Shown here: positions 5,509-58,976 of the stretch, piece by piece
Numbering within the stretch: position 1 is the stretch's first letter
How the letters are laid out: every line of letters begins with the position of its first letter
IMG/VR virus record: IMGVR_UViG_3300025158_000005
Direction: 5' to 3' (one strand)
DNA: 64,000 nt
Origin: a virus
Notes under the pieces: generated by a model
What the model was told of the DNA's origin: nothing
The model's input: only the letters and a program-made list of their open reading frames with translations
Database searches by the model: none
Program-made: the position numbers and the translations under genes

Positions 5509-5537
5509 TTGACGAAAAATAAGTTTTACTATATAAT
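5509..5537 (+). promoter_or_regulatory. strong sigma70 promoter (TTGACG-17-TATAAT) for the ncRNA array and DUF2828 operon
   Basis: Consensus -10, 5/6 match at -35, 17-nt spacer. Confidence 0.88.
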
Positions 5538-5556
5538 AGATGTATAAGTTATAAAC

Positions 5557-5566
5557 TGCTCTTTAA
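5557..5566 (+). promoter_or_regulatory. boxA antitermination element (TGCTCTTTAA)
   Basis: Matches the first 10 nt of rrn boxA TGCTCTTTAACA; lies about 13 nt after the predicted TSS. Confidence 0.75.
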
Positions 5567-5574
5567 TGATATAT

Positions 5575-5775
5575 TAGGATAGATACAGCAACAAATTTTA
5601 AAAGACCTACTAAGATTGCCCTAACTTGTGTGAAAGGCTGACTACCGGGAAAGACGGTGACAACTTGGAAAGACACGTTAGAGCCAACGTCGAATCAGTT
5701 GGTGATGTTCAAGGAAATTACTTGATGACACTTGAAAAGACAAGTGCTAAGGGGAAAGCCATGATCTCTATCCTG
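5575..5775 (+). ncRNA. structured ncRNA unit 1 (CAGCA-stem, Y-RNA-like candidate)
   Basis: AGGATAGA (5576-83) pairs with TCTATCCT (5767-74), followed by TACAGCA; at least five internal hairpins. Confidence 0.7.
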
Positions 5776-5791
5776 TTAAAGTTGTAAAATT

Positions 5792-5896
5792 TAGGATGAC
5801 TACAGCATACACTTAAAATATCGCTAATGCCTAGAAGTTATAAGGGTCCGGCGCCGAGTATATACGGACGTGGGACCTAGGGCTTCTGTTATCCTG
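5792..5896 (+). ncRNA. structured ncRNA unit 2 (CAGCA-stem)
   Basis: AGGATGAC pairs with GTTATCCT (one G-U), followed by TACAGCA; long internal hairpin AGAAG..GGTCC...GGACC..CTTCT. Confidence 0.7.
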
Positions 5897-5913
5897 TCAA
5901 AATGAAGTAGTTT

Positions 5914-5983
5914 TAGAATGTTTGCAGCAAACACTATCTGCAAAGCGATTCCGAGGGACTTATAAATCCCCTCAAACATTCTG
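5914..5983 (+). ncRNA. structured ncRNA unit 3 (CAGCA-stem), next to the RBS
   Basis: AGAATGTT pairs with AACATTCT, followed by TGCAGCA; internal GAGGGA/TCCCCTC hairpin. Confidence 0.65.
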
Positions 5984-6003
5984 TTAATTATTGGAGTAAT
6001 ACA

Positions 6004-6492
6004 ATGAACACTTTTGCACAAGCAGTAAACGCTCCCGCAGTTACCTCAACCACCAACGGCATGAAGGCTTTTACCAACACTGGCAAGTCTATTGTCGACC
6101 TGTTTTATTCGATCGGCTCGTCACGTAATGCACAACCTAAGATTGCTGCTGAATTCTCTCGCGCATTCGCCGAGGACAAGACCCTAGCGGCTCGTACCCT
6201 ATTTTGGGCACGTGATATTCGTGGCGGCGCGGGCGAACGTTTGACGTTCCGTAATCTGATGTTACAGTTGGAAAAGACTGACGTGAACGCATGTAAGCGG
6301 CTAATTCCGTTGATCCCCGAATATGGTCGTTGGGATGATCTGTTGATCTTCACCGCGGCTGATACCAAGGAAGTTGCATATAAAATTATATCAAAAACTC
6401 TCAAAAATGGGATAAAATCCCGTCACATATTGGAAATAATTGAATCGTTGTCTGAAGATGATTGTAAAGAATTGTTGGAGCATTTTGAATAA
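6004..6492 (+). CDS. DUF2828 / Ro60-TROVE-like protein, N-terminal fragment
   Basis: TTNGM, VDLFY, WARDIRGGAGER and EYGRWDDL signatures; ends in an atypical AT-rich tail. Confidence 0.85.
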   Translation: MNTFAQAVNAPAVTSTTNGMKAFTNTGKSIVDLFYSIGSSRNAQPKIAAEFSRAFAEDKTLAARTLFWARDIRGGAGERLTFRNLMLQLEKTDVNACKRLIPLIPEYGRWDDLLIFTAADTKEVAYKIISKTLKNGIKSRHILEIIESLSEDDCKELLEHFE

Positions 6493-7299: not shown

Positions 7300-8331
7300 A
7301 TGTCTTACAAAACACAATTAGAATCAATCTGTCGTCAAAATTTGTCTAGCGCGCAGTTGTGCGCTAAGTGGCAAGATCGTAAAGGGCTGGCAGCAGTCGA
7401 ATTGCGTAAGTTCATGAAGATGACGCCAAAGCAGTATCGCAAGACTTTGGTTTCAATGACTAACGTCGTTGAACAGTCAATGTGTGCCCAAGAATGGGAT
7501 AAGATCGAATTTGACAAGTTGCCTTCTGTTGCGTCAAAGATTTACATGAAGGCATTCACCAAGAATGCGACCGCGCAATATATGAAGTACAAGGAAGCCT
7601 TGACGAAGGGCGAAGCGAAGATCAATGCATCGGCGATCTTCCCGTACCAAGTTATTCAAGGTATGCGCCGTGGTGACGCAACCGTTGGTATGGCGCAATG
7701 GGGCGCACTGCCTAACTATTTGGGCGATGATAAGATTCTGACTATGGTAGACGTGTCGGGGTCAATGAACTGCCCTGCTGGCAGCAACGTGAGTTGTATG
7801 GATATTGCAGTGTCTCTTGGTCTGTATATTGCAGATAAGCAACAAGGCGCATTCAACGGCATGTTCTTGACGTTCTCGGAGAAGCCTCAATTGGTGCAGT
7901 TGACCGGTAACATTCAACAAAAGATGTCGCAAATGCAACGCTCCGACTGGGGTATGAACACCAACATCACCGCGGCATTCGATGAAGTATTGGAGGTGGC
8001 AACTCGTAACAAGGTTGAAGTATCTGAAATGCCCAAGTTCATCTTGATCATGTCAGATATGCAGTTTGATAGATGCTCCAACATGTCTGGGCTGGAAATG
8101 ATTCGTACAAAGTATGAAGCGGCAGGGTACGAAGTTCCGAAGATTGTTTTCTGGAACTTGAATGCAATACACGCAAACGCGCCGACGACGGTCCGTACAG
8201 ATGGTGTTGCATTGATTTCAGGATTCTCGCCTGCAATCATGAAGTCCGTGTTGAAAGCAGAAAACTTTGATCCATTGTCGATTGTTATGCAAACGATTAA
8301 CGGTCCTCGTTATCAGATGATTGAACTGTAA
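7300..8331 (+). CDS. DUF2828 / Ro60-like protein, C-terminal fragment with vWA (MIDAS) domain
   Basis: LCAKW, YRKTL, VEQSMCA..W..IEFDKLPS, DVSGSM, MNTN, SDMQFD, VFWNL, ISGFSP. Confidence 0.9.
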   Translation: MSYKTQLESICRQNLSSAQLCAKWQDRKGLAAVELRKFMKMTPKQYRKTLVSMTNVVEQSMCAQEWDKIEFDKLPSVASKIYMKAFTKNATAQYMKYKEALTKGEAKINASAIFPYQVIQGMRRGDATVGMAQWGALPNYLGDDKILTMVDVSGSMNCPAGSNVSCMDIAVSLGLYIADKQQGAFNGMFLTFSEKPQLVQLTGNIQQKMSQMQRSDWGMNTNITAAFDEVLEVATRNKVEVSEMPKFILIMSDMQFDRCSNMSGLEMIRTKYEAAGYEVPKIVFWNLNAIHANAPTTVRTDGVALISGFSPAIMKSVLKAENFDPLSIVMQTINGPRYQMIEL

Positions 8332-8335
8332 TTTA

Positions 8336-8364
8336 TTGACAATAAATGCCACGTATGCGACAAT
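8336..8364 (+). promoter_or_regulatory. sigma70-type early promoter (TTGACA-17-GACAAT)
   Basis: TTGACAATAAAT family; the -10 box is flanked by an inverted repeat CACGTATGC/GTATACGTG. Confidence 0.65.
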
Positions 8365-8522
8365 GTATACGTGTCGTTTTTACATCATGAAGAATGAAAT
8401 GAATTGTCAAGAAAAACCAAAGAACACACTCTGTCCGAATCAGGGGCACACTAATTGATCCTCCTGTTTCAGCAACGAGACAAAAGGATTTCTATGACAA
8501 TCAACCCAGCGGAGAAATCTAA

Positions 8523-9944: not shown

Positions 9945-10139
9945 ATGCTGAAAATTAACAAGTTTACCGGTCTATGTTATATTGATAACACCTATGATAA
10001 TCCTAGATTAAAAATTCAATGTATCATAACAAAAGCCAAACCAAGGTGGAATTTGGGATTGGGCAGTCATACTGTATCTTACTATACGGAATGGATTAAA
10101 GATATTGATGTTGTTGAGGTTAACTTTTGTGGTGAATAA
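9945..10139 (+). CDS. hypothetical protein
   Basis: ORF coupled to the gp59 start (TAATG). Confidence 0.5.
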   Translation: MLKINKFTGLCYIDNTYDNPRLKIQCIITKAKPRWNLGLGSHTVSYYTEWIKDIDVVEVNFCGE

Positions 10140-10756
10140 TGTTATCAGGTTGGACTTTTTTCAAGATTCACAAGGCGATTGACTTTCATTTCAACGTAGC
10201 ATCATATGACGTGATAAAGTATTCGGGCAAGATAAAGGTTTCACCAGAAAAATACGGAGTTAGAAGTGACAGACACAGATTCGAATATTACGGTGGTAAG
10301 TTCTTTAACCGCGAAAAAGCGGCTCAGTTCTGCATTGCTAACTTTATTCGTGGCAATCGGGACTTTATCTACAACAGTTATGAGGACGCTGAATCTGAAT
10401 ATCTACAGTGGCGCAAGATCCAAGATTCAATCACAAAAGTATTCCAAGACGATCTTAATAAAATAGAATCACGTGCAAAAGGAGTTGATATCTTTTCGGT
10501 AACTCCGAGTGGAAATCAGCCTCCTTTGTTGCAAATGATCAAGGCAAGTTTTATTACTGTCGAAAGTGCTGTTTTGCTATATAATGAAGGCACCAACAAA
10601 TTTTTTGACACGTGGGCAGAAGTATGTAATAATGATCCATATGCAAAAACTTTGGTAATGCGTTGTATGAAGTATCGACCTTTTGTCAAATACCAAAAAG
10701 ACAAGATTCAAACAATAATCAAGGAGCATAAGTTTCAAAATGGGCAAGTCAGTTAA
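10139..10756 (+). CDS. 59: helicase loader gp59
   Basis: AI..HF....YD..KY.GK...R.D...F; ANF; KYRPF; synteny 33-59-32. Confidence 0.88.
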   Translation: MLSGWTFFKIHKAIDFHFNVASYDVIKYSGKIKVSPEKYGVRSDRHRFEYYGGKFFNREKAAQFCIANFIRGNRDFIYNSYEDAESEYLQWRKIQDSITKVFQDDLNKIESRAKGVDIFSVTPSGNQPPLLQMIKASFITVESAVLLYNEGTNKFFDTWAEVCNNDPYAKTLVMRCMKYRPFVKYQKDKIQTIIKEHKFQNGQVS

Positions 10757-10996: not shown

Positions 10997-11965
10997 ATGG
11001 CAATTAATCCTGCCCTACTAGCCGCCGTTCAAAAGTTACAAGCGGGCGGCTATTCAAACCAAGATGATAATAAGGAAGATTTCTGGCGGTGTGAAACAGA
11101 CAGTGCTGGTAATGGTTTCGCTGTCATTCGTTTTCTTCCAGCAAAGTCCGACGATCAACTTCCATTCACCAAAATATTCGACCATGGTTTCCAAGGTCCG
11201 GGCGGCTGGTTCATCGAGAAGTGCCCAACCACAATCGATAAAGAATGCCCGGTATGTGAAGCAAATGGTCCTCTTTGGAATTCGGGTTTGGAATCCGACA
11301 AGGGAGTCGTTCGCAAGCGCAAGCGTCGTACATCATTCATTTCCAACATCAAAGTCATTTCCGATCCAAAGAATCCTCAGAACGAAGGTAAGATTTTCAA
11401 GTTCAAGTATGGCAAGAAAATCTTTGATATGATTGCAACCGCGATGCAGCCTCCGCTGGTTGAACTCGATGCCGGTGAAGCAGTAGCAATCGATCCGTTC
11501 AGTTTAACGGAAGGTGCTAACTTCAAGTTGAAGATTCGCAGGGTTGAAAAATACGCAAACTTTGAGAAGTCGAGTTTCGATAATGTCTCTACATGTGATA
11601 TTGATTGGAAAAAGTTGTTCGATCTTTCCGTCTATAACGACGAGAAGATGTTCAAGAGTTACGAAGACCTGAAAAAGCGTTTCCTAAAGGTAACTGCTGG
11701 TGGGACTGCAAAGCCAACTCAAATGAGCACGTCAACCTCCGATATGACAGAGGAAGATGACAACCCTAAGGTAACTGCTGGTGGGACTGCAAAGCCAACT
11801 CAAATGAGCACGTCAACCTCCGATATGACAGAGGAAGATGACAACCCTTTTGATAACGCGGTAAAGATGAACCAGCCCGTAACAACGGCATCCAAACCCG
11901 CAGTAACCAGTGATGATGACGATGATGATATGTCGTTCTTTCGTAGTCTTGCAGCAGATGACTAA
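10997..11965 (+). CDS. 32: single-stranded DNA-binding protein gp32
   Basis: GNGFAVIRFLP, HGFQGPGGWFIEKCPTT, CPVCE, KYGKKIFD, EGANFKLKIR; acidic tail. Confidence 0.97.
   Translation: MAINPALLAAVQKLQAGGYSNQDDNKEDFWRCETDSAGNGFAVIRFLPAKSDDQLPFTKIFDHGFQGPGGWFIEKCPTTIDKECPVCEANGPLWNSGLESDKGVVRKRKRRTSFISNIKVISDPKNPQNEGKIFKFKYGKKIFDMIATAMQPPLVELDAGEAVAIDPFSLTEGANFKLKIRRVEKYANFEKSSFDNVSTCDIDWKKLFDLSVYNDEKMFKSYEDLKKRFLKVTAGGTAKPTQMSTSTSDMTEEDDNPKVTAGGTAKPTQMSTSTSDMTEEDDNPFDNAVKMNQPVTTASKPAVTSDDDDDDMSFFRSLAADD
11687..11848 (+). repeat. perfect 81-bp tandem duplication within gene 32
   Basis: 11687-11767 is identical to 11768-11848 (KVTAGGTAKPTQMSTSTSDMTEEDDNP twice). Confidence 0.95.
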
Positions 11966-12084: not shown

Positions 12085-14643
12085 TTAATTTATCTGATTT
12101 AAACCATGTGTAGTTTTCCCACCGTTAAAAGTGATCAACATCTTGCGTTGAGTCGGTAATGCGGGATTAAATGACACGTGAATCCATACCGACTTTCCAC
12201 GCACTTCATATATCAATTGGTCGAACGGAACAAGATTCTTTATTTCTTGAGCACGTTTGAATAACTCAGCACGTTTACCATAAATCGAAGTAAACGTCAG
12301 ATCCGCTGCCATTCCTAGTTCATGTTGAGAAGTCTTACCTGTTTCTGTTTTAGAATACCTGTTACCAGAAGGTCTCCAACCAGAATTCAATTTCATGTCA
12401 GGATAAGCGGCCAGAATTGGCTCAAGACAATTCACGGCTAGAGCATACATGTTACATGCTTGTTGTGCTACCGTTAGCCCATGTTGAGGCAGAATCATTC
12501 CGCCGACCGCCCTGGCCTCTTCGCCAGAGCACAGTTTACCGATAGTGAAGTTAGGTGTAAGTCTAGTACTCTTAGTTAGTGTTGCGGGTAGTTGTGAACA
12601 CGAAACAATCCGGGCTGGCGGAGGATTCGTCGGAGTCGTATCTGGATCGCCAGGTGTGCCGCCGGCGAATTCTGGATTAGTAGGATCGATTCCTACCGCA
12701 ATCATTTCATCGGTAGTCATTTCTTCAATCTGCATGTTCGCGTTATTTTCTGCTGACGGGGTATGCAACAATATGAACTCTGGTGAATTAGAATCAAACT
12801 GTAACGCTGGTACCAACGGCGCAGCAGATTTTGCAACACCCGACATGTTGATTACCTTGGTTCCATCAAACGCAATAATTCCAGATGATCGACCAGAAAT
12901 AGTTGAACCTAGAAGATTCATATCTGACCCGGATTTTATCTGTGTCTTGCCAGTTGACGCTACGTTGAACGTGTCGCACTTCAACTTGAAGTCTGTACAT
13001 TCAATTTCCAGAGAATCATCACATTGAAACGAAATCTGACCCTCAGAATGAAGATTCGTGGTTCCTGCTGCGTGGACGTTTATGTCGCCTTGAACGTCTA
13101 GATGACAGTCAGCAGCAACGAAGATAGAACAATTTCCGGTTACCGAAACTGTTGCTTGCCCGCCGATTGAGATATAACCATCGCTATCGATGATCGTATA
13201 TCCGTTGCCCACAATCTTGTTGACTTGCGTACCATTACAATCAATCTCAGTGAACGTTCCCGTCTTATGATACAAGTGAATACGTTCTGCGCCGGCTGTA
13301 TCATCAAACTCTAGAAGATGCCCAGACTCAGATTGATACACATGATTATATGGATATTGAGATGCATACGGTACCGTTGGTTGATCCCATGCACCACCGC
13401 CGTTAGCGACAACGTTGCCTGTAGTTCTTCCGTCACGCTTATCTGATACTACGGTTTGGTCAATCTTTTCGTTACGAGCAAGACGATTACAATCTGCCTC
13501 ATTCAAGAAATCCGATTGAGGATATTTTCCGTTAGGATCAACGAATCCCATGTTAGGTGAAACTGCAACTGGCGGATTTGACGGGGCGGGCGTTGATGAA
13601 CTTGTTGGATCGACAATAATAGGAGTCGCTGGAGCAGGAGTCGAAGGAGGAGCAGTAGAAGCAACGGCAGCACTGTGAAGATTTTCTCTTGTTGGTATCT
13701 CGTTAGTTGAAGTGCCCGCGATTGCTGCATATCCAGCCTTATAATACGTTGAACAATTCGTACCGTACTTGTCAGATTTTGTTGGTCCACCCGCCAGCCA
13801 TTTATTGACTGGACCTGCTCCCACAAGATGACATGCAGCGAGTACACCAGCAGTCTTCTCAGGCGGAACACCAGAGTCAAGTTTCGCGTAGCGATATTCT
13901 TTTCCGAGAAGAATATTCATGGCATTTTCTTGAGCAGCAGGTGAGTTGAACCATGCTTGTTTAGACGTTACTCCGTCTTTACCTGTCCAGTTCGCTGGGT
14001 TTCCAGTGATCGGAGCAAGTTTCTTTCCCCTCCATGGCATGTTCTTGATGTAACCAGTGTCAATTAATGCGCCCACACCAAACTGATACTTGCCAATATA
14101 ACCGATACTGTTCTCAACAGAATACGGATTTGGTTTACCACCAGATTCATATTTCGCAATCTCTGCTTTCAGTTTGCATACCTGAGCGCCAGATAAAGAC
14201 CCCAAAGAAAACGAACAATCGCTTGGATTCGATGGCGCTGGCGCAGTAGGATTCACTCCAGGAGGTGGAGCAACTGATGATGGTAAATCTGATGATGTTG
14301 TTGGGCTAGCTGGCGGAACAATTGATCCGGCTGTAACCGATTGTACATTGCCTGGAGTTGACATGGGCCAGCCCGGAAAAGTACCCATCATCACAGGTTT
14401 TTGTTTATCATTACCATCAAGGAAAAATACTGCAACATACGTTCCTTCAACAACACCAGTTGGGGATTCACCGATACCGTTCATGCTTGCAGAGGTAATC
14501 GGAGTCATAGGCATCGCCCATGGAAGATCATCCGTAGGAAGAATAACACGATCCGGGCAATGAACCCCGATTACCCGCACCTTACAACGCCCCATCTTTA
14601 GCGGATCTTTACGTGATTCAACTACTCCAAAATATAATTCCAT
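12085..14643 (-). CDS. 5: baseplate central spike gp5 with a lysozyme-like domain and a C-terminal peptidase M15
   Basis: GVVE.R.DPLKMGRCKVRVIG.H (OB fold), YPYNHV..SESGH..EFDDT.GAERI, beta-helix repeats, SGWR...SQH..G.AAD...WIHVS; likely start ATG 14643. Confidence 0.93.
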   Translation of the reverse strand: MELYFGVVESRKDPLKMGRCKVRVIGVHCPDRVILPTDDLPWAMPMTPITSASMNGIGESPTGVVEGTYVAVFFLDGNDKQKPVMMGTFPGWPMSTPGNVQSVTAGSIVPPASPTTSSDLPSSVAPPPGVNPTAPAPSNPSDCSFSLGSLSGAQVCKLKAEIAKYESGGKPNPYSVENSIGYIGKYQFGVGALIDTGYIKNMPWRGKKLAPITGNPANWTGKDGVTSKQAWFNSPAAQENAMNILLGKEYRYAKLDSGVPPEKTAGVLAACHLVGAGPVNKWLAGGPTKSDKYGTNCSTYYKAGYAAIAGTSTNEIPTRENLHSAAVASTAPPSTPAPATPIIVDPTSSSTPAPSNPPVAVSPNMGFVDPNGKYPQSDFLNEADCNRLARNEKIDQTVVSDKRDGRTTGNVVANGGGAWDQPTVPYASQYPYNHVYQSESGHLLEFDDTAGAERIHLYHKTGTFTEIDCNGTQVNKIVGNGYTIIDSDGYISIGGQATVSVTGNCSIFVAADCHLDVQGDINVHAAGTTNLHSEGQISFQCDDSLEIECTDFKLKCDTFNVASTGKTQIKSGSDMNLLGSTISGRSSGIIAFDGTKVINMSGVAKSAAPLVPALQFDSNSPEFILLHTPSAENNANMQIEEMTTDEMIAVGIDPTNPEFAGGTPGDPDTTPTNPPPARIVSCSQLPATLTKSTRLTPNFTIGKLCSGEEARAVGGMILPQHGLTVAQQACNMYALAVNCLEPILAAYPDMKLNSGWRPSGNRYSKTETGKTSQHELGMAADLTFTSIYGKRAELFKRAQEIKNLVPFDQLIYEVRGKSVWIHVSFNPALPTQRKMLITFNGGKTTHGLNQIN

Positions 14644-14649
14644 CTTGTT

Positions 14650-14686
14650 TGTAACATCCTGTAACAAGTTGTAACATTTTGTTACA
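14650..14686. repeat. four TGTWACA repeats at an exact 10-bp period (iteron-like)
   Basis: TGTAACA at 14650, 14660 and 14670; TGTTACA at 14680. Confidence 0.85.
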
Positions 14687-14715
14687 ATTGAGAAATAATT
14701 TGTACCAAAATAAAT

Positions 14716-14743
14716 TTGACATCCGTACAAAAAAGAGTACGAT
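14716..14743 (+). promoter_or_regulatory. sigma70-type promoter (TTGACA-16-TACGAT) facing the structured element
   Basis: Perfect -35, plausible -10, suboptimal spacer. Confidence 0.55.
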
Positions 14744-14746
14744 AGA

Positions 14747-15404
14747 GTAACGGTTAGATGATTGCATTTTGAAGGAGATCAATCAGCAAGGACATTGCAT
14801 CCCTGTCCCGTTACGAAACTATTTATGCAGTAATTTGAATGACGCGAAAGCCTGGGCCATGCGGTACAATCCCCGATGGATCATAAAAATTGCTGAAGGC
14901 ATGAATAGTTGCTTCCGACTTAAATCCGTTTACAAATTCGTTTACCGACGTGCATCACCAAAATTACATAGCCACAAGCCGATAGATCGGTGTGAGAGAA
15001 AGTGAATTATCGGATGTTCCGATAGTTTATTCGTTGACAACTCCGCATATATGCGAGGGGGACCACGGCAAAACGTAAAATATAAAAGAGAGCGACAGTT
15101 CTCATGAGGTGGGGAGGTGCCACCAAATCATATAGCGTTATGTGTTCCAAAGACTAGCTATATGGTTCCGCCGGGATTAAATTCCGACTACATGTGTAAA
15201 AGCCTACAGGACGACCAGGGCTTACCTTATTATACAAGGTTTCATTCTTTGGATGCCAGTTGCGATGTCATGCATCGCCAGGTATAGCCCCTGGAATGGG
15301 AAACTATGCCTGTGCTCCATCGTGCATCAATTATCTAATTTATAGATTAAAACTAAACAAATAACATCACTCTTACGAAGTAAGAGGGATAATGCGAAGC
15401 ATTA
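14747..15404 (+). ncRNA. candidate large structured ncRNA or origin-associated transcript
   Basis: No credible ORF; more than ten helices, with G-U wobbles on the + strand. Confidence 0.6.
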
Positions 15405-15501
15405 GATAGTAACTGTATGATGCGTGGGAAATATTCATTCTTGACTTTTATTTGACACTCATACATATAATAATCATACTGCACTTATTATGGTTCATTC
15501 T

Positions 15502-16958
15502 ATGTTTATTCCATCAGACCAACAAGTTGCATTCTTCGACTGGATTAAGACTGGTAAGTGATCGTGTGTTCTTGAAGCTGTTGCAGTAGCAGGCAAAACA
15601 ACTACGCTTGTTAAAGCGTTACATCTAATGGAAGGTAATGTTTTGTTTGGTGCTTATAATAAAGCAATTGTTGAAGATATTAAATCTAAAGCTCCCAAGA
15701 GTAAGAATATAACAATTTCAACGTTACATACGGTAGGTATTGTCGCATGTTACAAGATTACTCCTTCGCTTAAAGTGGATTCGTATAAATGTTCGAATAT
15801 TTTAGAAATATGATTCCTAAAAAATATGCATTGGCCGAACTAGAATCTGATGTGCTGAAGTTAGTATCATGGGCAAAACAGTTTGGTGTGGGGTATCACT
15901 ACCTCATTTGAAGATTCTCACTGGAATGATATTTTGGTTCACATCGGAGGTGTTGACGATGATACTATCGTTATTAACCTAGCGCGGGACGTTTTGCTTG
16001 AATCAAATAAGATTCTTGTTATTGTTGACTTTGTTGTCATGATTTATCTGCCCTTGTTATTTAACTGCAATCTTAAAAAAAATATGATTGGTTGCTTATT
16101 GATGAAGCTCGGGATACGAATGGCATTCGTAGAATGATTTCGTTAAAGTCGTTGAAAGATGACGGAAGACTTGTCGCAGTTGGTGATAAACATCAAGCTA
16201 TTTACGGATTTACTGGAGCAAATTCCAATGCGCTGGATTTAATTGCGGCCGAATGCGGCGCTGTTAGACTTGGGTTGGCAACAACGTATCGTTGCCCAAA
16301 GAGTGTAGTTGCTTATGCACAGTCGTTTGTGAGTCATATTAGACCTGCTGATGCCGCGAAAGAAGGAACAGTAGAATTCATTTCTCATGATGATGTTACA
16401 AAATCGAAGCTGGGTGACGTTATTTTGTGCAGATTTAATGCTCCTCTTGTTAATCTCGCCTACAAATTTATAAACGCTGGAGTATCTGCTAAGGTAGAAG
16501 GTTGCGACATTGGAGTTGGGCTGGAATCTATCGTGAAGAAGATGGGTACGGTACATGATCTTGATGAGTTGCTACTGAGACTTGAGAAATTTCGAACCAA
16601 ATATGTTGCAAAATACACAAAATTAGAGAGAATGTCTGACGTTGCGAGTATTAATGAACAGGTTGATTAATATAATTATTCGCCGGGTCAAATACAAAGG
16701 AGGCCGATCCGTTGATTCTCTATTGGCCGAAATAAACAGAATGTTCGGAAGTAAGCTGGACAGTAGATATGCCATTCTTTCGTCTATCCACAAGGCTAAG
16801 GGTCGGGAGTGGAAGACTGACTACTGGCAAAAGTTAACGAAAATTACGCTTCCCGCGATTGGGAACTGGATCAAGAGAATAATTTATGTTACGTCGCGGT
16901 GACCAGAACATTGAGCAGACTCGTGGTAGTTGATGCTCCCATAAAAAGAAAAACCTAG
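15502..16958 (+). pseudogene. UvrD/Rep-like SF1 helicase pseudogene
   Basis: PSDQQ, AVAVAGKTTT, AYNKAI, IDEARD, VGDKHQAIYGFTGA, TYRCPKSVV, SIHKAKGREW and YVAVTR spread across frames; in-frame TGA at 15559 plus several frameshifts. Confidence 0.9.
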
Positions 16959-18400
16959 GAAGCAACCAACGGCGTTACGGCTTGTTCAGTCGAATTTCTA
17001 ACGCATTGAACGGTCATCTTATGTTGGTTAGGTGACAATCTATGATGAATGGCTGTTACTAACCAGTTACCACTTGTCTTTGTATCATCCACATTCAATG
17101 ATTGCCCGGTGGCGGGATCAACGTCTTGAGTATAATTACCTTGATTTATATTGATCATGTCACCAACTTCTAGCCAACTTCTTCCCCATATGTCGATATC
17201 AATCTGATTCATTTCTAGGAAATTGAATGCGGGAATTCGACTCAAGGTGGAATATTTTTCATAATCATCTGGTAGATCATGAGTCAATCGATTCATGTCC
17301 GTGACGGCAATGTTCGCATCTGGAGCGATGTTGTATAGTTGTGGATTTGACGGGTCTGCTAGTGACTTTGGATATTCAGGAAGAATTGAGGTGCTACTAT
17401 CAGAAGTTGCCCCAAAGTTGTAAGTATACGTATCATGATATGACCAGACGGAGGTATTCAATGTCTTCAAGAACATGTCATTATTGAAAGAGGTCTGCCC
17501 GTATGCTCTGTTCAAGAATGCTGTCAGATTGTCAACGATCTTTCGGTGTCTTAGATCGATTATTTTGATCATCATTTCTTGTGGGACGCCATTCGATTGT
17601 GAGTGATCCCAGTTGAAGTAATCGACAGGATCATCACGGAATAGTTCACCGAATGCTTGAAAGTAGTATGCTTGACTTGATTCATAGAATACGTAGTCTG
17701 CCACAGGAAATTGGGTATTACCATCGTCTCTAACTGCCATTTTTTCACACCACTTGATGCACTCGAAGGTGGACCATTGCGGGGATACGAATTTGACCTG
17801 GTTCAATTGATCTGTTTCGATTGTTGCTCCGTCTTCGGTTGTACCCTGATTCCAATACGTTGCTCCTGGACCGTTAGTATTTCCTTGAGAAGACGAATTC
17901 ATAGGAACAGTCTTATCGTAGGCATCCCAGTTTTGTGCGATTGTCAGAATCTGGGCGATGATCTGCCCTGGTGTTCCCTTGAATGCTCCATTGATCGAAT
18001 TTCTCACGTCTGCATATGCATCATTGGAAATGAAGTGTAGTTTGTACGTTTGCTTATTACCTGTGATCGTTCTGTCAGAGACTTTGAAGACCTTGAACAC
18101 TTTTTCGACTGTATTGGTTACACCGGGGGTTCTGAAACCTAGAAAAAGAGTTTCCATTCCGATGATGGGCAATCTCGAAATCAAGTTATGTGTGTCTACG
18201 ATAACCATGTTGCCGTACATCGTCGGGCTCATGATATCTTCATAGAGATTTATTTCTGGAGACAAACCCAGAAGATCGACCGTATACGCAGGATCAATCG
18301 GCACTGAACCGAAGTTGGTCAGACTGCAATATAACCAAGTAACGTCACCTCCAGCAGTTAATGTGCCAGCGGATCCCGTCGAATCATAACTGGGGGTCAT
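16955..18400 (-). CDS. baseplate hub protein (gp27-like)
   Basis: INLYEDI.SP...G...I.D...LPIIG.E, Y.LHF.S, FYES...Y.F, SGNWLVTAIHH. Confidence 0.8.
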   Translation of the reverse strand: MTPSYDSTGSAGTLTAGGDVTWLYCSLTNFGSVPIDPAYTVDLLGLSPEINLYEDIMSPTMYGNMVIVDTHNLISRLPIIGMETLFLGFRTPGVTNTVEKVFKVFKVSDRTITGNKQTYKLHFISNDAYADVRNSINGAFKGTPGQIIAQILTIAQNWDAYDKTVPMNSSSQGNTNGPGATYWNQGTTEDGATIETDQLNQVKFVSPQWSTFECIKWCEKMAVRDDGNTQFPVADYVFYESSQAYYFQAFGELFRDDPVDYFNWDHSQSNGVPQEMMIKIIDLRHRKIVDNLTAFLNRAYGQTSFNNDMFLKTLNTSVWSYHDTYTYNFGATSDSSTSILPEYPKSLADPSNPQLYNIAPDANIAVTDMNRLTHDLPDDYEKYSTLSRIPAFNFLEMNQIDIDIWGRSWLEVGDMININQGNYTQDVDPATGQSLNVDDTKTSGNWLVTAIHHRLSPNQHKMTVQCVRNSTEQAVTPLVAS

Positions 18401-34166: not shown

Positions 34167-37100
34167 ATGACCACGAACTTCAATTTAAGTCCTTATTTCG
34201 ATGACTTTGCAGACTCAAACAACTACTATAAGGTACTGTTTCAGCCTTCGCGCCCTGTTCAAACTAGAGAACTAAACCAACTACAATCCATTCTACAGAA
34301 TCAAATTGCCAAGAACGGCGATTTCATGTTCAAGAATGGAGCGATGATCGTTCCTGGCCAAATATTCTTCGATAATACAGTCACTTATATCACTGTAAAC
34401 TCAGTAAACGGAGTCGGTGTTTCTGCTGACGTTCAATTGTCTTCTGCTGTTGGTAAGACTCTATCGAACGGTTCAACTACCACAGCAATCGTTGTGTTTA
34501 CGGAAGCAAGCACTGATGCTGATCTAACCACGTTGTTCATTCGTTATACAGGTGGTAACGGTACGTTCTCTGCTGGCGATACGTTAACAGCTACTGATTC
34601 GTCTGTTTCGTTCACCGTGTCCGCTGGAACCTCCGCTGTTCCTTATACAGGAACAGGTTCTATCGTTACGATCAATGATGGTGTCTACTACGTAAACGGA
34701 AACTTTGTCAACGTTTCCAAGCAAACTATTTCGCTTGACAAATATTCTAATACTCCTACGTGGACAGTCGGTCTGAACGTAGTTGAGACAATCGTTACCG
34801 CTAACGATGATTCAAGTCTATATGATAATGCTCTTGGATATCCCAACTACGGTGCACCTGGCGCAGACCGTTACAAGATCATGCTAACACTGGGTAAGAA
34901 GGATTACTCAACGACTCGGGTTACCGGTTCCGATCTTCAGTTTATCGATCTTCTTCAAGTTCAGAATGGTGTTATTACCTTTGAAGTAGATGACACCGCA
35001 TTCGCATCGTTTGAACGTATGATGGCAACCCGCACGTATGATGAAGCGGGAGACTTCTTGGTGAATCCGGTTACGTTCTCTGTGACGGACTATCGTTCGA
35101 ACAATCGTGGAAACTGGGCATCGAATACAGCATACCTCGTTGGTGACGTAGTAAAGACTGTGGATGGATCATACTGGGAAGCAAACTCGTCTGGTGTTTC
35201 AAGTACAACAGAGCCGACCACTCTAACGAATACCCAATGGGCTGTTACCGATGGCGACGTAAATTGGGCGTATACGAATACTCCAGTTTATAACAACGGT
35301 ATCAACGTTGATGGTAACACGGTTACCCTTGATACGATGCTTGCTAACGATCAACAAATGGTATACAAGGTGTCTCCAGGTTCTGGTTACATCAAGGGAT
35401 TCCGTGTTGTCAAGCAAGGTCCATCATTCGATGCAACAAGCAAAGCAACTGATCATGTTTATCAACCAGCAGAAATCGTTTCGATCAACGCTGGTAGCAA
35501 CATGCAGGTCACAAACGTATCTGGTATACCAGACATTCACACGTATGAACTACTAAATGTCTATTATACCCAACAAACGGAAACCTGGGCTTCCTTGAAG
35601 CGCACCGCAGTTGGTACATGCAACATCGTTGGCGGTGTCATTGTAAACTCAAGTATTCAACTAACAGACTATGGTTTCGGTTACGATCCACAGAATCCTC
35701 CTACCGTAACGATTACCTCTGGCTCACCATCGACTGCTGCCACGTTCAAGGTCAACATGAGTCTGGACGGGCAGATTCAATCAATCGTGGCAGTAAATGC
35801 CGGCGCAGGCTACACAAACGGAACTGGTCTTTCTCTAACGATTGATGCACCTGGCGCAAATGCTCCCGTTATCGGAACATGTCGTGTTCGCTCAATGGAA
35901 TATTCACAAGGAACAATCGGTATCAGTTCATGTGTATATGACGTTCAGGTATTTGATGTGAATCTGAACCCTGGTTATAACTTCCAAGAACATGCATTCT
36001 CCCTACAAAACGCATCTGGTTCGTTCAAGTGTGATATCAACCGCACTTACACAACGCTTCTTGGTACGGTAAGCATTACGTCCGGTTCGAAGTCTGTTTC
36101 TGGTGTGGGTACAAACTTCATGGCTTCCCTGAATCCTGGGCAGTTGATTCGGATCGGCGGTGCATATTACAATCGTGTTGGTATTGACAATTACTCTAAC
36201 GTAGCATTCACATCAAGCAACAACTTTACCGCCAGTCTTTCAAATACTCTGATTGAATTGGTGACGAACAGTTTTGTCTCGACAGGCGCATTGATTCAAT
36301 CGATGCCTAAGCCATTCGTGCGTAGTCTTCGTGCGGCTGATGATGCAACCTCTACGATGCAATATACCATAGTTCGTCATTACACGACCACAGTAACGTC
36401 AAATAACGCAACGATCACGCTATCGGTTCCAGGCGAAACGTTCACGAATCCTTTGACTACCGGAAACTATCTGGTTGCGATTCAGAATGGTGCAATCTAC
36501 ACGACCGCACAATACACCGTCACACGCACTTCAGACACACAAATAACAATCAACATTCCATCGTTGTCAAGTGGCACGATTGAAGTTCTGACAAAGATTA
36601 CTAAGAACGTCGGAGCGTCTAAGGAGAAGCAAAAGACTCTCAAGATTGGTACCTTGTCAATTACTAACGTGAGTCAGGTTGCTGCTTCTACGATTACCCT
36701 ACCTAACGCAGATATCTACCGTATCGTCAAGATCATGCAGTCAAACGGTATCGGTACCGTAACAGGTGGAAACTACCCGGCTTTCGTTGCCGCTAATGCA
36801 ACCGATCTAACGAATAACTACACGGTGTTTAACGGGCAAAATTCGTTCTACTACGATCTAGGTTCTATCACGTTGAACAAGGGAGCACAAGCACCTAACA
36901 ATACGTTGATGATCGTATATGAGTATTTCCAACATTCAGCGGGAGATTACTGTTCTGTTAACTCATATGGCAATCTTCCATATGAAAAGTTGACTCCGAT
37001 GCAAACGAATACAATTGACTTCCGCCCAGTAAACGGAACAACCGATTTCACTACCGGGCAGATTACCGAACCTCTTGTTTACGGTTCAGATTTTGTGACC

Positions 37101-40100
37101 GACTATTCATACTATCTACCTCGTGCAGACTTGTTAGAGTTGAAGTCTGACGGTTCTATCGTTGTTCTAAACGGAACATCTGGATATGATCTAGTTACTC
37201 CTTCGGCTGATGCTGATGCCATGGGAATTGCAACCGCGGTTGTTGCTCCTGGTAATATTGATATCAACATCAACACTGTTCAGATTACTCCAATCGGGAC
37301 AAAGCGTTACACGATGAAGGATGTTGGTTCTCTTGATCAACGTATCTCCGATCTTGAGTATTACACTCAACTGTCCGTGCTTGAGTCACAAACTTTGAAT
37401 ACCAATGTTACCGACCAAAACGGGCTAGATCGATACAAAGCAGGTATCTTGGTTGATTCCTTAACGAATAACCCTGATTCTGCTGTTGACTCAACGAATC
37501 CGGATCATAACTGTACTGTAGACTATACAAAGGGTATTGGTCGTGCTTCTGTTGACGTAAAGAACATCAACATGAACGAGTTCTTTACCGTTGATTCACA
37601 ACGTTTGACAAACAATTACCAACGTACAGGTAACACAATCACACTACCATACACGAATCAAGTTGCCATTAGTCAAGTCAACGGCAACGCACATTCATTC
37701 GTTAACCCGTTTCAGATTATTTCGTACAACGGTTTCGCAACGCTTTATCCTAACAATGACGTATGGGTTGACCAAACTGTTATCTCCAACAATACAGTTT
37801 ATTCATCAACCTCTGCATATAATGCAGCTATCGCTGCCGGGCACACCAGCGGAACATGGGACTCATGGACTGTCAACTATCAATCCTATCTAACTGGATA
37901 TCAGAATCGTTGGTTGAAAGGAGTCACAAGTGGTTCATTTACGTCTTCCGGTCTTTCTGGTAACACAGGCACAGTAACGCTGTTTGCCGGGCAAGCGAAT
38001 GCGGGTGGAGGTTCATCGAGTTCAAATAACTGGCTGACTGCTGCAAATGCTCAACTATATGCAGCCAACGGTTTGCAACTCGGAACAATGATCGGTAATC
38101 AAGGTGGTAACACTGCTGTCCTTTCTCCTTGGGGGGATGGCGCATCACAATACATTTACAACTTCCAAGGCACGAATACTCGGTATTCTCTGACACAAAA
38201 CGTATCTACCTCAACCAATGTTGTCAATGAAGTTCCTCTAGGATACACACGTACCCGCCCAATCTTCTTCAAGATTGAGGGATGCATGCCTAACACCACG
38301 ATGAACACGATTACGTTTGGTAATACCACGTTACCGATCGATCAGTCTGGTGATATCGAACTCGCAATGACCGTTAGAATTCCGGGAATTGCTCCAATTT
38401 CATCACTAAGAACGTTCTATGATACAAGCGTAGTCTCCGATGCGGAAAAGATAAATCAAGCGTCTGGACGCACTGTGTCTACTAGCGTCCTCCAGAAATA
38501 CACTGACAATTCACCTCTGACGACCATCGTTTGGGACAAGGGCGGATACGTAACCAACAACTATGGCGGTACTGCTGTTCTAGGTGACGTTGTTCAATAT
38601 AGCAATTACTATGAATTGGAGTGTGTGAACGCTCAAGGTACATGGAATACCAGTTGTTATGTCGCATCTGATGGATACAATCTAGGATATCCGACGGCTG
38701 TTGTCGCAGGCGCTGTGTCGCATACGATTACGTTGAATGCATCCGGTCGCGGTTTCGGTGTGTTCTATCCAATCTGCAACAAGACGAAGCGTTTCCCATC
38801 TGGAACAAATAAACTGACGTTCTCTAACAATACAAATCCGCTTGATGCAACTTCTACAGCCTCAGCCACGTATTATGCAAGCGGATTGTCACAACAAGTC
38901 AATCAGACAACCAACGTAACGAATGACGTAACAAGTCAAGTCATTGGTTATAACTACTTCAGTGAAACTGTCGATTATCATGAACCAATCGCACAGACTT
39001 TCTTGATCGACAAGTCTGTTGATACCGGTTATTACATCACAGGTATTGACTTATTCGTGGCTGTCTCTGATTCAAATACCCCATTGATCGTGAATATTGC
39101 AACTGCTCTGAATGGTTATCCAACTCAGAATTATATCGCAACCAAGGTAGTTTACTCGAGGCAAGTTATTGCTAACGCAACGACTCCTGCGGCTTCATAT
39201 ATCGCATTTGATAATCCTGTGTTCTTGGCATCCGGTCAAGAATATGCGTTGGTTCTAACGGCCGCACAGAGCATCGTGTGGAAGACATGGGTGAATGATC
39301 TTACGATTCCTGGTTCCGTGAACAGTAACACAACTCCTTCGATTGGTTCATTCTTCGAATCACAAAACAGTTCAACATGGACTGCCGATCAAACTAAGGA
39401 CCTAACGTTCAATCTATATCGGGCAAAGTTCAAAACAGCTTATCCTGCTGATGTTACATACGTGAACAACGCATTGACTCCGATTCTATTGGCGTTGAAT
39501 CCTCTTTACAGTATCTCTGGTTCAAGCATTGTTCGTGTACGTCAACCATCGCATGGTTTTACTATTGGTGACAAGGTTACAATGTCTTCATTCTTGCCTG
39601 GTTCGTTTACTACTCTAGGAAGTTCTGCCGTAACAAAGACCTTGACTGTTATCGATACCAAGTATGATTCGTATCTAGTTGATTTCTCTGAGATAGCTGG
39701 TGGCACAGCAACATATACGGGCTACTTTGGTGGTTCTGCCGTGACAGCCACTACTCAGATTCAATTCTCGACAGTGATGCCAAGTGTTGACGTTCAATCG
39801 TTCTCTGGCACAGATTACACAATTGGAATGACTCCAGTTTCATACGTAATGACTCCGACAAAGCAACTAACGGCTCAAGCAGAAGTTATTGCAATCAACA
39901 ATCAGACCGTTGAACTAACAGAATCATGTATCGTTCTCGCTCCTGCTAACGAGGTCGCTTCTTCATCTTACGCTGGCGGCAAGTCATTTAATCTTCGCGT
40001 TACCATGACAAGTACCAAGGATAATCTATCTCCTGCACTGAGAGTGGATCGTGCCAATCTTGTTCTTGTTCGTAACAGAATTAATAGCCCTTCTTACGTA

Positions 40101-51741: not shown

Positions 51742-53700
51742 ATGCCAAAATACCTAACCAACATAGACCTACAAAACAATCAATTATTGAATGCCAAAAT
51801 TGGTCTAACGGGAACTGATCCCTCTACTTCTGCAAGCACAGAAGGTCTTATCTGGTGGAACAGTTCGACTCACTTATTAAAGGTTAGCGATCAAGCTGGA
51901 ACAGTTCAAGTCGTCGGTTGGTTGGGTTCATCAACCGCATCATTAGCAGCTAACGGAACAGGCGCAGCCGGTACTGCGACAACAGCCGCACGTTCGGATC
52001 ACACCCACACGTTGCCTGCCAATACGGCAGCATCAACACTTACCGTCGGGGGTGCAGCAACTATTGGTTCAAGTACGGGCGTTGCTCGCGCTGACCACGT
52101 TCACGCTATGCCCGCGGTCGCAACAACTTCTGTTGCTGGTTTCATGTCTGCTGCTGATAAGACGATGTTGACTAATGCACAGGCGGCACAAACAGCTAAT
52201 GCATATCTCGTTCTTCGTGATGCCGATGGTCGATTCCAAGCAACCGATCCTTCTGCTCCCCAAGACGTTGCAACCAAGAATTATGTTGACACCACGGCAC
52301 AAGGTCTAAATGCGAAGTCGTCTGTTCGTGCTGCAACAACCGCAGCCCTAGTCATTACCGCAAGAACATCTAGCACGTTGACGATTGGTGGCACGTCATT
52401 TGCTCTTGATGGTATTACACTTGCAAATAATGATCGTGTTTTGGTTAAGGATTCCACTACTGGTTCTGGTGCTGGTGCGTGGGATAATGGTATATACACT
52501 GTTGGTGGTATTGGAACTTCAGTAGTTCTTACACGCGCCTTAGATCAAGATTTATCATCAGAATTCCCTGCTGCTTATGTATGGATTGATGAGGGTGCGG
52601 TAAACAACGACCAAGGTTGGTTGTGTACTAACACCACAACAGCAGGCGTTACGGTCGGCACAACAGCGATCACATGGGTACAATTCTCTGGTGCAGGTCA
52701 AATTACCGTTACTGCACCGATTCTGAAATCTGGTAACTCTCTGGCTCTTGGCTACGATAACGCCACGATCGGTGTTTCTGGTAATAATATCTACGTCAAG
52801 AATAACAGTATCTCATCAACCCAGATGGCAACATCGTTTACTGCTGCTAACATCTACTCGATTCTGGGCGGCACGTCAACATACGCAACTGGCACCGCAG
52901 GTAAGCTAGTATTTGATACTAGCCCGACTCTTGTTACTCCTACGCTTGGTGTTGCTTCTGCTACCACGATTAACAAGGTAACGATTACTGCGCCTGCTAC
53001 AGGCTCGACATTGACGATCGCCAACGGTAAAACGCTAACTGCAAGTAACACGTTAACATTTACCGGTACAGACTCTTCATCTGTCGCTTTTGGTACTGGT
53101 GGTACGGTTGCTTATACGGCAAACAATTTATCAGTCTTCGCCGCAACTACTTCTGCTCAGTTGTTAGGGGTTATATCAGACGAAACTGGTTCTGGTTCGT
53201 TAGTATTCGCGTCAAGTCCTACTCTAACTACCCCGATTATTGGAACAGTTTATGGCTCAACCGCAGCCTCTGGAACATTAACTCTTTCATCAACAACCCA
53301 TGCGACAAAAGGAACAGTCACTGTAGGCAATTCTAACGCCGGAACATTGACTATGCAAGCGGCAACCATTAATATCAAGGTTGGCGCAGCAGCAACAGGT
53401 GGATACCTCAAGGTAGATGCAACAACTGGACTGTTAAGTATTGACACTACGACCCACGGTGGTGTTAATAAATATGTGACTAGTATTGGTGATGGAACAA
53501 CAACGCAGATTGTTGTGACTCATAACCTTGGTACTGCTGACTTTGTTGCAGAAGTTTATAACAACAGTTCTCCATATGATCGTGTTTATCCTGATATTTG
53601 GCATGCTGATACTGGAGGTATAAATGCAACAACAAAGGCAACATTCGTATTTGCTGTTGCCCCTACATCTAATCAATATCGTGTTGTTATAACTGGTTAA
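51742..53700 (+). CDS. tail fibre-like protein
   Basis: AARSDH.H repeats, DVATKNYVD, K.SVRAATT, DRVLVKD, NGIY, W.QFSGAG, THNLGT. Confidence 0.82.
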   Translation: MPKYLTNIDLQNNQLLNAKIGLTGTDPSTSASTEGLIWWNSSTHLLKVSDQAGTVQVVGWLGSSTASLAANGTGAAGTATTAARSDHTHTLPANTAASTLTVGGAATIGSSTGVARADHVHAMPAVATTSVAGFMSAADKTMLTNAQAAQTANAYLVLRDADGRFQATDPSAPQDVATKNYVDTTAQGLNAKSSVRAATTAALVITARTSSTLTIGGTSFALDGITLANNDRVLVKDSTTGSGAGAWDNGIYTVGGIGTSVVLTRALDQDLSSEFPAAYVWIDEGAVNNDQGWLCTNTTTAGVTVGTTAITWVQFSGAGQITVTAPILKSGNSLALGYDNATIGVSGNNIYVKNNSISSTQMATSFTAANIYSILGGTSTYATGTAGKLVFDTSPTLVTPTLGVASATTINKVTITAPATGSTLTIANGKTLTASNTLTFTGTDSSSVAFGTGGTVAYTANNLSVFAATTSAQLLGVISDETGSGSLVFASSPTLTTPIIGTVYGSTAASGTLTLSSTTHATKGTVTVGNSNAGTLTMQAATINIKVGAAATGGYLKVDATTGLLSIDTTTHGGVNKYVTSIGDGTTTQIVVTHNLGTADFVAEVYNNSSPYDRVYPDIWHADTGGINATTKATFVFAVAPTSNQYRVVITG

Positions 53701-53703
53701 TAA

Positions 53704-54039: not shown

Positions 54040-54040
54040 C

Positions 54041-58833: not shown

Positions 58834-58976
58834 GCGAACGAAGCGAGTGCGGCGAATTCGCTAATGGTTTAAATTACCATACGCAACGGCAGCGACCGGA
58901 GGGATAGTGCATAAGTAGTAATCAATGGGAGATAATGCACAATCTAGCGAACTTCGTTCGCACTCGCTTCGCTCGT
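58834..58976. repeat. ~30-bp imperfect inverted repeats flanking ~80 bp (REP/MITE-like element)
   Basis: GCGAACGAAGCGAGTGCGGCGAATTCGCTA versus TAGCGAACTTCGTTCGCACTCGCTTCGCTCGT. Confidence 0.8.

What the first reader, a model, noticed from the sequence alone, without database searches (positions are those of the whole stretch)
14747..15404. About 650 nt of densely structured non-coding sequence beside gene 5
Seen helices: GTAACGG/CCGTTAC (14747/14808); AACTATTTATGC/GCATGAATAGTT (14817/14899) enclosing CAGTAATTT/AAATTGCTG; GAATTATCGGA/TCCGATAGTTT (15004/15018); CGCATATATGCG (15044); GGTGG/CCACC (15108/15120); CATATAGC/GCTATATG (15129/15157); GCGATG/CATCGC (15262/15273); CAGGTATAG/CTATGCCTG (15279/15304). 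The non-Watson-Crick pairs in these stems are G-U on the + strand, as expected for a folded + strand RNA, and a promoter at 14716 points into it. Inference: an unannotated large phage ncRNA or an origin primer transcript. I do not recognise the family.
Basis: partly seen in the sequence, partly recalled or inferred. Interest (0 to 1): 0.75.

Follow-up and report, generated by a model that had tools for sequence, protein, structure and literature searches.

The report
Orphan non-coding early unit beside gene 5
An 840-base stretch next to the tail-spike gene of a T4-like groundwater phage is truly non-coding and folds well as RNA on one strand, but it lies in a lineage-specific insert beside a dead helicase gene and nothing yet shows that the RNA has a function.

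Summary
The helices exist at the stated coordinates. The + strand folds better than shuffles (z -4.3; - strand -1.9). This excess is moderate: it ranks 3rd of 194 tile-strands in the window, and a strand-neutral count of local hairpins is not above chance.

The gap 14647-15489 is clearly non-coding. It has no ORF, no codon bias in any frame, no period-3 signal and no protein, Rfam or DNA homolog.

In 53 of 53 distant relatives the 481-aa hub-operon gene abuts gene 5. So 14647-16954 is a lineage-specific 2.3-kb insert. It consists of this gap plus an opposite-strand UvrD/PcrA-like helicase pseudogene.

The gap runs from an early-type sigma-70 promoter with a built-in stem-loop (PeSL-like) to twin GAA-loop hairpins just before the helicase promoter. 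It also holds a late-promoter-like CATAAATA on the gene 5 strand.

Best reading (about 0.4): an ORF-free early transcription unit that makes a hairpin-rich untranslated RNA, possibly vestigial. Rivals are a functionless or merely regulatory spacer (0.3) and an oriE-like origin (0.13).

Covariation could not be tested because the relatives could not be fetched. Metatranscriptome contigs gave no verdict.

The parts
14647..16954 (.). Lineage-specific 2308-nt insert between the 481-aa hub-operon gene (16955-18400, minus) and gene 5 (12085-14646, minus)
   Evidence: In 53 of 53 IMG/VR relatives that have both genes, the 481-aa homolog lies directly upstream of gene 5 on the same strand.
14649..14687 (.). 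Phased TGTAACA / TGTTACA repeats at about 10-bp spacing, between the gene 5 start codon and the early promoter
   Evidence: Five of the six TTGTAACA in the 64-kb window lie inside the insert.
14716..14743 (+). Early-type sigma-70 promoter TTGACA-16-TACGAT, with a CGTAC/GTACG stem-loop between the hexamers (PeSL-like). The predicted start is near 14750.
   Evidence: PeSL anatomy is taken from PMC2839356.
14772..14777 (+). Shine-Dalgarno-like AAGGAG with no start codon at a usable distance
   Evidence: Sequence. No ORF with coding signal follows.
14817..14910 (+). 94-nt imperfect hairpin: a 12-bp and an 8-bp stem, each with one G-U, and an apical GAAA loop
   Evidence: (z -3.2 on +, -1.4 on -).
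14820..14827 (-). Late-promoter-like CATAAATA on the gene 5 strand, 174 nt upstream of the gene 5 ATG. It overlaps the base of the hairpin.
   Evidence: There are four CATAAATA in the window and all are sense to late genes. The other three lie 36-42 nt before start codons. CTAAATA behaves likewise.
14990..15320 (+). Run of local hairpins: 15002-30, 15044-55, 15088-103, 15108-24, 15126-67, 15172-86, 15193-236, 15262-78 and 15279-312
   Evidence: (z -3.95 on +, -1.7 on -). A natural variant, C15273T, turns a G-C pair into G-U.
15321..15368 (.). AT-rich, little-structured spacer
15370..15404 (+). Two adjacent GAA-triloop hairpins with no U tract on the + strand. On the - strand the first is followed by a T-rich tail and looks like a terminator.
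15452..15480 (+). Second early-type promoter, TTGACA-17-CATACT, in front of the helicase pseudogene
15490..16940 (+). UvrD/PcrA-like helicase pseudogene. It has two in-frame TGA, at least five frame changes, and a Walker A motif that reads AVAVAGKT.
   Evidence: One DNA run carries a 1013-nt deletion variant. The nearest intact relatives are at most 56% identical.

Best explanation
The stretch is the ORF-free cargo of an early transcription unit inside a lineage-specific cassette that was inserted, in the opposite orientation, into the baseplate-hub late operon of a T4-like groundwater phage. Host RNA polymerase would start at the sigma-70-type promoter at 14716-14743, near 14750. It would copy the + strand into an untranslated RNA of about 650 nt. 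That RNA folds into one long hairpin (14817-14910) followed by a string of short hairpins (14990-15312), and ends at or is buffered by two GAA-loop hairpins (15370-15404) just before the helicase promoter. The same DNA also serves the other strand. A late-type CATAAATA at 14827-14820 probably restarts gene 5 transcription, which the insert cut off from its operon. The hairpin at 15386-15370 looks like a terminator for late transcripts that run in antisense across the dead helicase gene. Shown: non-coding status, insert status, fold excess with + strand bias, and consensus promoters. Inferred: that the RNA is made, where it ends, and that it has or had a function. It may be a vestige, like the helicase gene beside it.
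For: Non-coding: there is no ORF. Codon-usage log-odds are negative in all six frames, and this is the longest and deepest such stretch in the window. There is no period-3 signal (0.47 against 0.73 in shuffles), whereas the helicase pseudogene keeps 4.2-6.4. No Pfam or PHROG hit appears in six frames with stops read as X. phmmer against 1.84 billion representatives finds only the phage's own spurious ORFs.

Structure: z is -4.3 on the + strand and -1.9 on the - strand. Two separate sub-regions show the same bias. The excess disappears with DNA parameters. The region ranks 3rd of 194 tile-strands.

Unit anatomy: promoter, then SD-like motif, then 650 nt, then twin hairpins, then the next promoter. 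The best sigma-70-like sites in 1-20 kb are nearly all on the + strand. The promoter has a stem-loop between its hexamers, as PeSL cassettes do (PMC2839356; PMC4122927).

Insert: 53 of 53 relatives lack it.
Against: No homolog was found anywhere, so there is no covariation. No Rfam family matches, even at E up to 10. The fold excess is not unique, because coding tiles reach z -3 to -4.3 and other intergenic tiles reach -4 to -5. A strand-neutral hairpin count is at chance level. The first helix starts upstream of the predicted transcription start, and the first domain is not significant. The only gene of the cassette is dead and partly deleted in some genomes, so selection on the insert may be relaxed. 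The promoter scores well below the phage's main early promoters.
Confidence: 0.4

Rival explanations
1. Functionless or merely regulatory spacer. The 840 nt are leftover non-coding DNA of a decaying acquired cassette. Only the promoters, the repeats next to gene 5 and the end hairpins matter, and the apparent RNA structure is the tail of the chance distribution.
For: The neighbouring helicase gene shows that neutral DNA persists in this lineage, and a deletion variant is segregating. The z-score is within the range of other tiles. The local hairpin count is not above shuffles. No family or homolog was found.
Against: The length is unexplained, since PeSL-type intergenic cassettes are about 100 bp. 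G+C is at the coding level (about 0.44) rather than the 0.30-0.33 of the flanking promoter zones. Both independent sub-regions fold better on the strand of the predicted transcript. The largest non-coding gap of the window is also one of its two or three best-folding tiles.
Confidence: 0.3
2. oriE-like replication origin. The phased repeats bind an initiator or a host factor. The early promoter makes a transcript that stays annealed as an R-loop and primes leading-strand synthesis. The helicase gene was once part of the module.
For: [quoted passage not shown] Here there are phased repeats, an early-type promoter firing against the late genes, an AT-rich stretch at 15321-15368 and a helicase gene.
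Against: T4 oriE lies inside gene 5 and its primer RNA is antisense to gene 5. Here the unit lies upstream of gene 5 and points away from it. The repeats are 7-mers at 10 bp, not 12-mers, and they overlap the gene 5 leader, so they could equally be an operator. No role of the T4 iterons in oriE activity has been shown. There is no change in GC skew here. R-loop priming does not need 650 nt of RNA-specific hairpins. The insert is absent from 53 relatives, which must replicate without it.
Confidence: 0.13
3. A decayed protein-coding gene: an ORFan or homing endonuclease that once sat between the two promoters, or a long translated leader.
For: An SD-like AAGGAG follows the promoter. One frame runs 178 codons with only two stops, P 0.047 uncorrected. 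The neighbouring gene is a pseudogene.
Against: There is no period-3 signal although the frameshifted helicase keeps a strong one. That frame has strongly negative codon log-odds. No homolog was found in Pfam, PHROGs or 1.84 billion representatives. tblastx against 83 relatives' loci finds nothing.
Confidence: 0.05

Closest known systems
PeSL (promoter-early stem-loop) cassettes of T4-type phages (Arbiol et al. 2010, PMC2839356; Comeau et al. 2014, PMC4122927)
   Same: Both have a sigma-70-like early promoter with an AT-rich upstream stretch and a stem-loop between or over the hexamers, followed by an SD. Both flank non-essential, lineage-specific inserts, sometimes inside conserved core blocks, and bring their own transcription signals. 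Other early promoters of this phage share an extended consensus and have stem-loops over the -10 hexamer (8336, 18967).
   Different: PeSL cassettes carry an ORF(an). Here the 650 nt behind the promoter have no ORF and no coding signal. The promoter also departs from the phage's own extended consensus.
T4 oriE with its early antisense transcript (Kreuzer and Brister 2010, PMC3016281; T4 record NC_000866)
   Same: Both have an early-mode promoter among late baseplate genes in the gene 5 neighbourhood, evenly spaced short repeats, divergent transcription and a link to an accessory helicase.
   Different: oriE and repEA/repEB lie inside gene 5 and are antisense to it. Here the unit lies outside gene 5 and diverges from it. 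The repeats differ in length and sequence, and no replication data exist.
Large phage-associated structured ncRNAs in Rfam (GOLLD, ROOL and similar)
   Same: These are also several hundred nucleotides long, ORF-free, carried by phages and rich in hairpins.
   Different: No covariance-model match was found at gathering score or at E up to 10. There is only one GNRA loop, and no multi-species alignment or covariation.
Morons and other accessory inserts of tailed phages
   Same: A self-contained transcription unit inserted against the direction of the surrounding late operon.
   Different: Its protein gene is dead and its first part never coded.

Membership tests
Any Rfam 15 family (including GOLLD, ROOL, group I and II introns, tRNA, small ribozymes) | Covariance-model score at or above the gathering threshold | tested here: not met
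   There were 0 matches in the whole window at gathering score. At E up to 10 only noise appeared, at 15-19 bits against thresholds of 32-80.
tRNA cluster (as in T4) | Cloverleaf genes detectable by ARAGORN or the Rfam tRNA model | tested here: not met
   ARAGORN found none in the window and none down to 80% thresholds. There was no Rfam tRNA hit.
Structured ncRNA (generic) | Folding energy below that of dinucleotide shuffles, on one strand | tested here: met
   z is -4.34 on + and -1.92 on -. It ranks 3rd of 194 tile-strands. The excess is absent with DNA parameters.
Structured ncRNA (generic) | Compensatory base changes in homologs | not testable with these tools
   No homolog was found. One natural SNP keeps a pair as G-U, which proves nothing.
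Structured ncRNA (generic) | A discrete transcript | tested here: inconclusive
   Contigs from two metatranscriptomes touch 14640-14800 and 15108-15263, but they are as sparse as on the neighbouring genes and give no strand or ends.
PeSL-type cassette | Sigma-70-like promoter with an adjacent or embedded stem-loop and an AT-rich upstream region | tested here: met
   TTGACA-16-TACGAT, with CGTAC/GTACG between the hexamers and AAATAAAT upstream.
PeSL-type cassette | SD and start codon of a downstream ORF | tested here: not met
   AAGGAG is present at 14772-14777, but there is no start codon and no coding signal.
PeSL-type cassette | Associated with a lineage-specific insertion | tested here: met
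   53 of 53 relatives have the two flanking genes adjacent.
T4 oriE-type origin | Early-mode promoter plus evenly spaced direct repeats | tested here: met
   The repeats are 7-mers at about 10 bp and one is inverted.
T4 oriE-type origin | Position inside gene 5, with a primer RNA antisense to gene 5 | tested here: not met
   The T4 annotation places oriE and repEA/repEB within gene 5. Here the unit lies upstream of gene 5 and diverges from it. Only about 65 nt would overlap a gene 5 leader made from the putative late promoter.
T4 oriE-type origin | Replication initiates there | not testable with these tools
   No replication data exist. GC skew shows no switch.
Protein-coding gene or recent pseudogene | Period-3 signal, codon bias, or a protein homolog | tested here: not met
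   The helicase pseudogene serves as the positive control.

The most novel reading that the evidence does not exclude
A new, orphan class of large (about 650 nt) structured early RNA, carried as the sole live cargo of a mobile promoter cassette in a T4-like phage of groundwater bacteria. It might act with, or have outlived, a cassette-borne helicase. It might instead serve as an R-loop primer of an acquired origin.
Probability: 0.25. Interest if true: 0.65.

Novelty: new member of a known kind. Interest (0 to 1): 0.4.

Why it matters
T4-like phages are tightly packed, so 0.65-0.84 kb that never coded for protein calls for an explanation. If the RNA is real, it would be a large phage ncRNA with no known family, riding in a mobile promoter cassette. 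It would also be a rare case of an RNA gene as the cargo of modular shuffling. If it is junk, the locus still shows how an insert can split a conserved hub operon, how gene 5 seems to regain a late promoter inside the insert, and how long dead DNA survives in a phage that packages by the headful. Either way the claim cannot yet carry weight, because it rests on a single sequence.

Tried and rejected
Fetching relatives:
The contigs of the 20 gp5 variants and of the 71%-identical lineage (P0002) could therefore not be fetched.
- The single metagenome scan chose generic peptides and returned only three distant loci.
- IMG/VR and the GTDB genomes do not hold this phage.

Similarity searches with the gap, none of which found anything:
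- blastn against INPHARED phages.
- blastn, nhmmer and tblastx against 83 gp5 loci.
- BLAST against five whole IMG/VR relatives.
- The leaders of three intact helicase homologs.

RNA data:
- Metatranscriptome contigs cover the gap as sparsely as its neighbours. This gives no verdict on transcription. One contig spans the promoter itself, so it cannot come from that promoter.

Readings rejected:
- tRNA cluster.
- Recoding by TGA. Late genes use TGA as a stop with ATGA overlaps, and the helicase also has TAG stops and frameshifts.
- ssDNA hairpin element. DNA-parameter z-scores are weak on both strands.
- Terminal repeats or a target duplication of a mobile element.
- A DnaA-box-like origin: I saw no such site on reading the sequence.

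Not attempted:
- A single-sequence covariance model was not built, because no candidate sequence space with plausible relatives was at hand.

Full report
CONTEXT. The window is part of a T4-like myophage.
- gp59 lies at 10139-10756 and gp32 at 10997-11965.
- Gene 5 (hub and lysozyme) lies at 12085-14646 on the minus strand.
- A tail and baseplate block follows from 16955 onwards.
- No INPHARED phage is similar at the DNA level, and gp5 is at most 36-48% identical to annotated phages.
- The same DNA is held by 21 groundwater and aquifer metagenome runs.
- Its gp5 forms a cluster of 20 near-identical variants on contigs of up to 166 kb. One further lineage is 71% identical.

THE OBSERVATION.
- With 100 dinucleotide shuffles the + strand of 14747-15404 has z -4.34 (0 of 100 as good). 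The - strand has z -1.92.
- The signal sits in the 94-nt hairpin 14817-14910 (z -3.2 against -1.4) and in the hairpin run 14990-15320 (z -3.95 against -1.7).
- The first domain, counted from the predicted transcription start, is not significant.
- With DNA parameters both strands are weak, z -2.2 and -1.65. The excess is therefore one of RNA-type pairing on the + strand.

Three controls temper this.
- Among 194 tile-strands of equal length over the window (mean z -0.77, sd 1.5) the region ranks about third. Several coding tiles reach -3 to -4.3, and two other intergenic tiles reach -4 to -5 on both strands.
- A strand difference this large is seen in 5% of tiles.
- A strand-neutral count of local inverted repeats is at chance: 7 against 5.2 +/- 1.8. 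The mismatches in those stems are 3 G-T and 0 A-C.

IT IS NON-CODING. The gap between the gene 5 ATG (14646) and the helicase ATG (15490) has the following properties.
- It has no ORF of note.
- Codon log-odds trained on the phage's own genes are negative in all six frames. This is the longest and deepest such stretch in the 64 kb.
- The period-3 signal is absent: 0.47 against 0.73 in shuffles. The badly damaged helicase gene next door keeps 4.2-6.4, and true genes give 1.9-5.8.
- Six-frame translations with stops as X hit nothing in Pfam or PHROGs.
- The one frame with only two stops in 178 codons (P 0.047) finds only the phage's own mis-called ORFs among 1.84 billion representatives. That frame also has the worst codon score.
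- Rfam gives nothing and ARAGORN gives nothing.

THE CONTEXT THAT CHANGES THE READING.
- Immediately to the right lies a UvrD/PcrA-like helicase gene. It is dead. It has two in-frame TGA at conserved glycines, a Walker A motif that reads AVAVAGKT, DYDDM changed to DFVVM, and at least five frame changes.
- One DNA run carries a 1013-nt deletion of this gene at roughly a quarter of the depth. An RNA-run contig has an extra A at 15818.
- The nearest intact helicases are at most 56% identical. They have no long leader.
- In all 53 IMG/VR relatives where both genes are detectable, the homolog of the 481-aa gene (16955-18400) sits directly upstream of gene 5 on the same strand, usually overlapping it.
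- Hence 14647-16954, the gap plus the helicase, is a 2.3-kb lineage-specific insert set against the direction of the hub operon.

ANATOMY OF THE GAP.
- 14649-14687 holds TGTAACA three times and TGTTACA once, at about 10-bp phase. Five of the six TTGTAACA of the window lie in the insert.
- 14716-14743 holds TTGACA-16-TACGAT, with a CGTAC/GTACG stem-loop between the hexamers and an AT-rich upstream stretch.
- The best sigma-70-like sites of the first 20 kb are almost all on the + strand. Several share an extended consensus and carry stem-loops over the -10 hexamer. This is the make-up of the PeSL cassettes that flank plastic genes in T4-type phages (PMC2839356; PMC4122927).
- The promoter at 14716 scores lower than the canonical set.
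- An SD-like AAGGAG follows at 14772, but there is no start codon.
- On the minus strand, CATAAATA at 14827-14820 matches what looks like this phage's late-promoter motif. All four copies in the window are sense to late genes. The other three lie 36-42 nt before start codons, and CTAAATA behaves the same way. Gene 5, cut off from its operon, probably restarts there with a leader of about 165 nt that contains the repeats.
- The gap ends with an AT-rich stretch and two GAA-loop hairpins (15370-15404). They have no U tract on the + strand. The first is terminator-like on the - strand.
- The helicase promoter then follows at 15452.

WHAT IT MOST LIKELY IS. The pieces describe a discrete early transcription unit whose 650-nt body never coded for protein. 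I think it most likely (about 0.4) that it is transcribed early into an untranslated, hairpin-rich RNA. Whether that RNA does anything now is open, because its cassette partner is dead.
- Functionless-spacer reading (about 0.3): this explains the pseudogene context and the modest statistics. It does not explain the length, the coding-level G+C, or why the largest non-coding gap is also among the best-folding tiles with the bias on the promoter's strand.
- Origin reading (about 0.13): this borrows from T4 oriE, which has an early promoter, evenly spaced repeats, a gene 5 neighbourhood and helicase dependence. But oriE lies inside gene 5 and is antisense to it, the role of its iterons is unproven, and 53 relatives do without this insert.
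- Decayed-ORF reading: this is largely excluded by the period-3 and codon tests.

WHAT COULD NOT BE DONE. Covariation is the decisive test and was out of reach. IMG/VR and the GTDB genomes lack the phage. The metatranscriptome contigs touch the gap (14640-14800 and 15108-15263) no more densely than its neighbours, and they give no strand or ends. One natural variant, C15273T, changes a G-C pair of the 15262-15278 hairpin into G-U, which is compatible with the fold but carries no weight.

VERDICT. This is a real, orphan, non-coding early unit in a lineage-specific insert. It is a plausible but unproven structured RNA. Interest is moderate.

Noticed in passing
window 15490-16940: The UvrD/PcrA-like helicase is a pseudogene. 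Several lesions are changes to T at conserved residues: GGA to TGA at two glycines, GGA to GTA in Walker A, and two Asp to Val. A frameshift pair brackets 15818-15895.
   Followed up: partly
window 15738-16752: One groundwater DNA run holds a contig that joins 15738 to 16752. This skips 1013 nt of the helicase pseudogene, at depth 38 against about 133-150. The dead gene appears to be in the process of being lost in the population.
   Followed up: no
window 15818: A contig from an RNA library has one extra A in the A run at 15819-15824 and A>C at 15826. This locally rejoins two helicase frames. It could be a strain variant, polymerase slippage or an error.
   Followed up: partly
window 14649-14687, 15748-15755, 16394-16401: Five of the six TTGTAACA octamers of the 64-kb window lie inside the 2.3-kb insert. 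Two of them lie within the helicase pseudogene on the minus strand. This may be the site of a DNA- or RNA-binding protein. The cluster sits in the probable gene 5 leader, right up to the start codon.
   Followed up: partly
window 14820, 20639, 32617, 44111 (CATAAATA); 34124, 59153, 59180, 61264, 62985 (CTAAATA): This is the candidate late-promoter motif of the phage. All nine copies are on the sense strand of late genes, and most lie 30-45 nt before a start codon. T4's TATAAATA is not enriched.
   Followed up: partly
window 229, 2175, 4786, 8336, 18967: A family of early promoters shares an extended consensus: TTGACAATAAAT, then TG, then TATGAT-like, then GTA. Stem-loops overlap the -10 hexamer, for example at 8350-8373. 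These look like PeSL-type recombination and regulation cassettes.
   Followed up: partly
window 53299-53956 and 58563-59220: These two tiles fold far better than expected on both strands (z about -4 to -5). They contain the intergenic regions 53700-54041 and 58833-59235.
   Followed up: no
window 36849-37506: A tile inside the 2221-aa late gene has + strand z -4.3 and - strand z -1.9. It is as extreme as the finding itself.
   Followed up: no
window 5537-6004 and 7300-8331: There is a second long ORF-free early leader of about 460 nt with no significant period-3 signal.
   Followed up: no
window 14529-14552 vs 14720-14743: A 24-nt stretch inside gene 5 is 75% identical to the spacer and -10 part of the early promoter. 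This may be chance or a trace of the recombination that made the insert.
   Followed up: no
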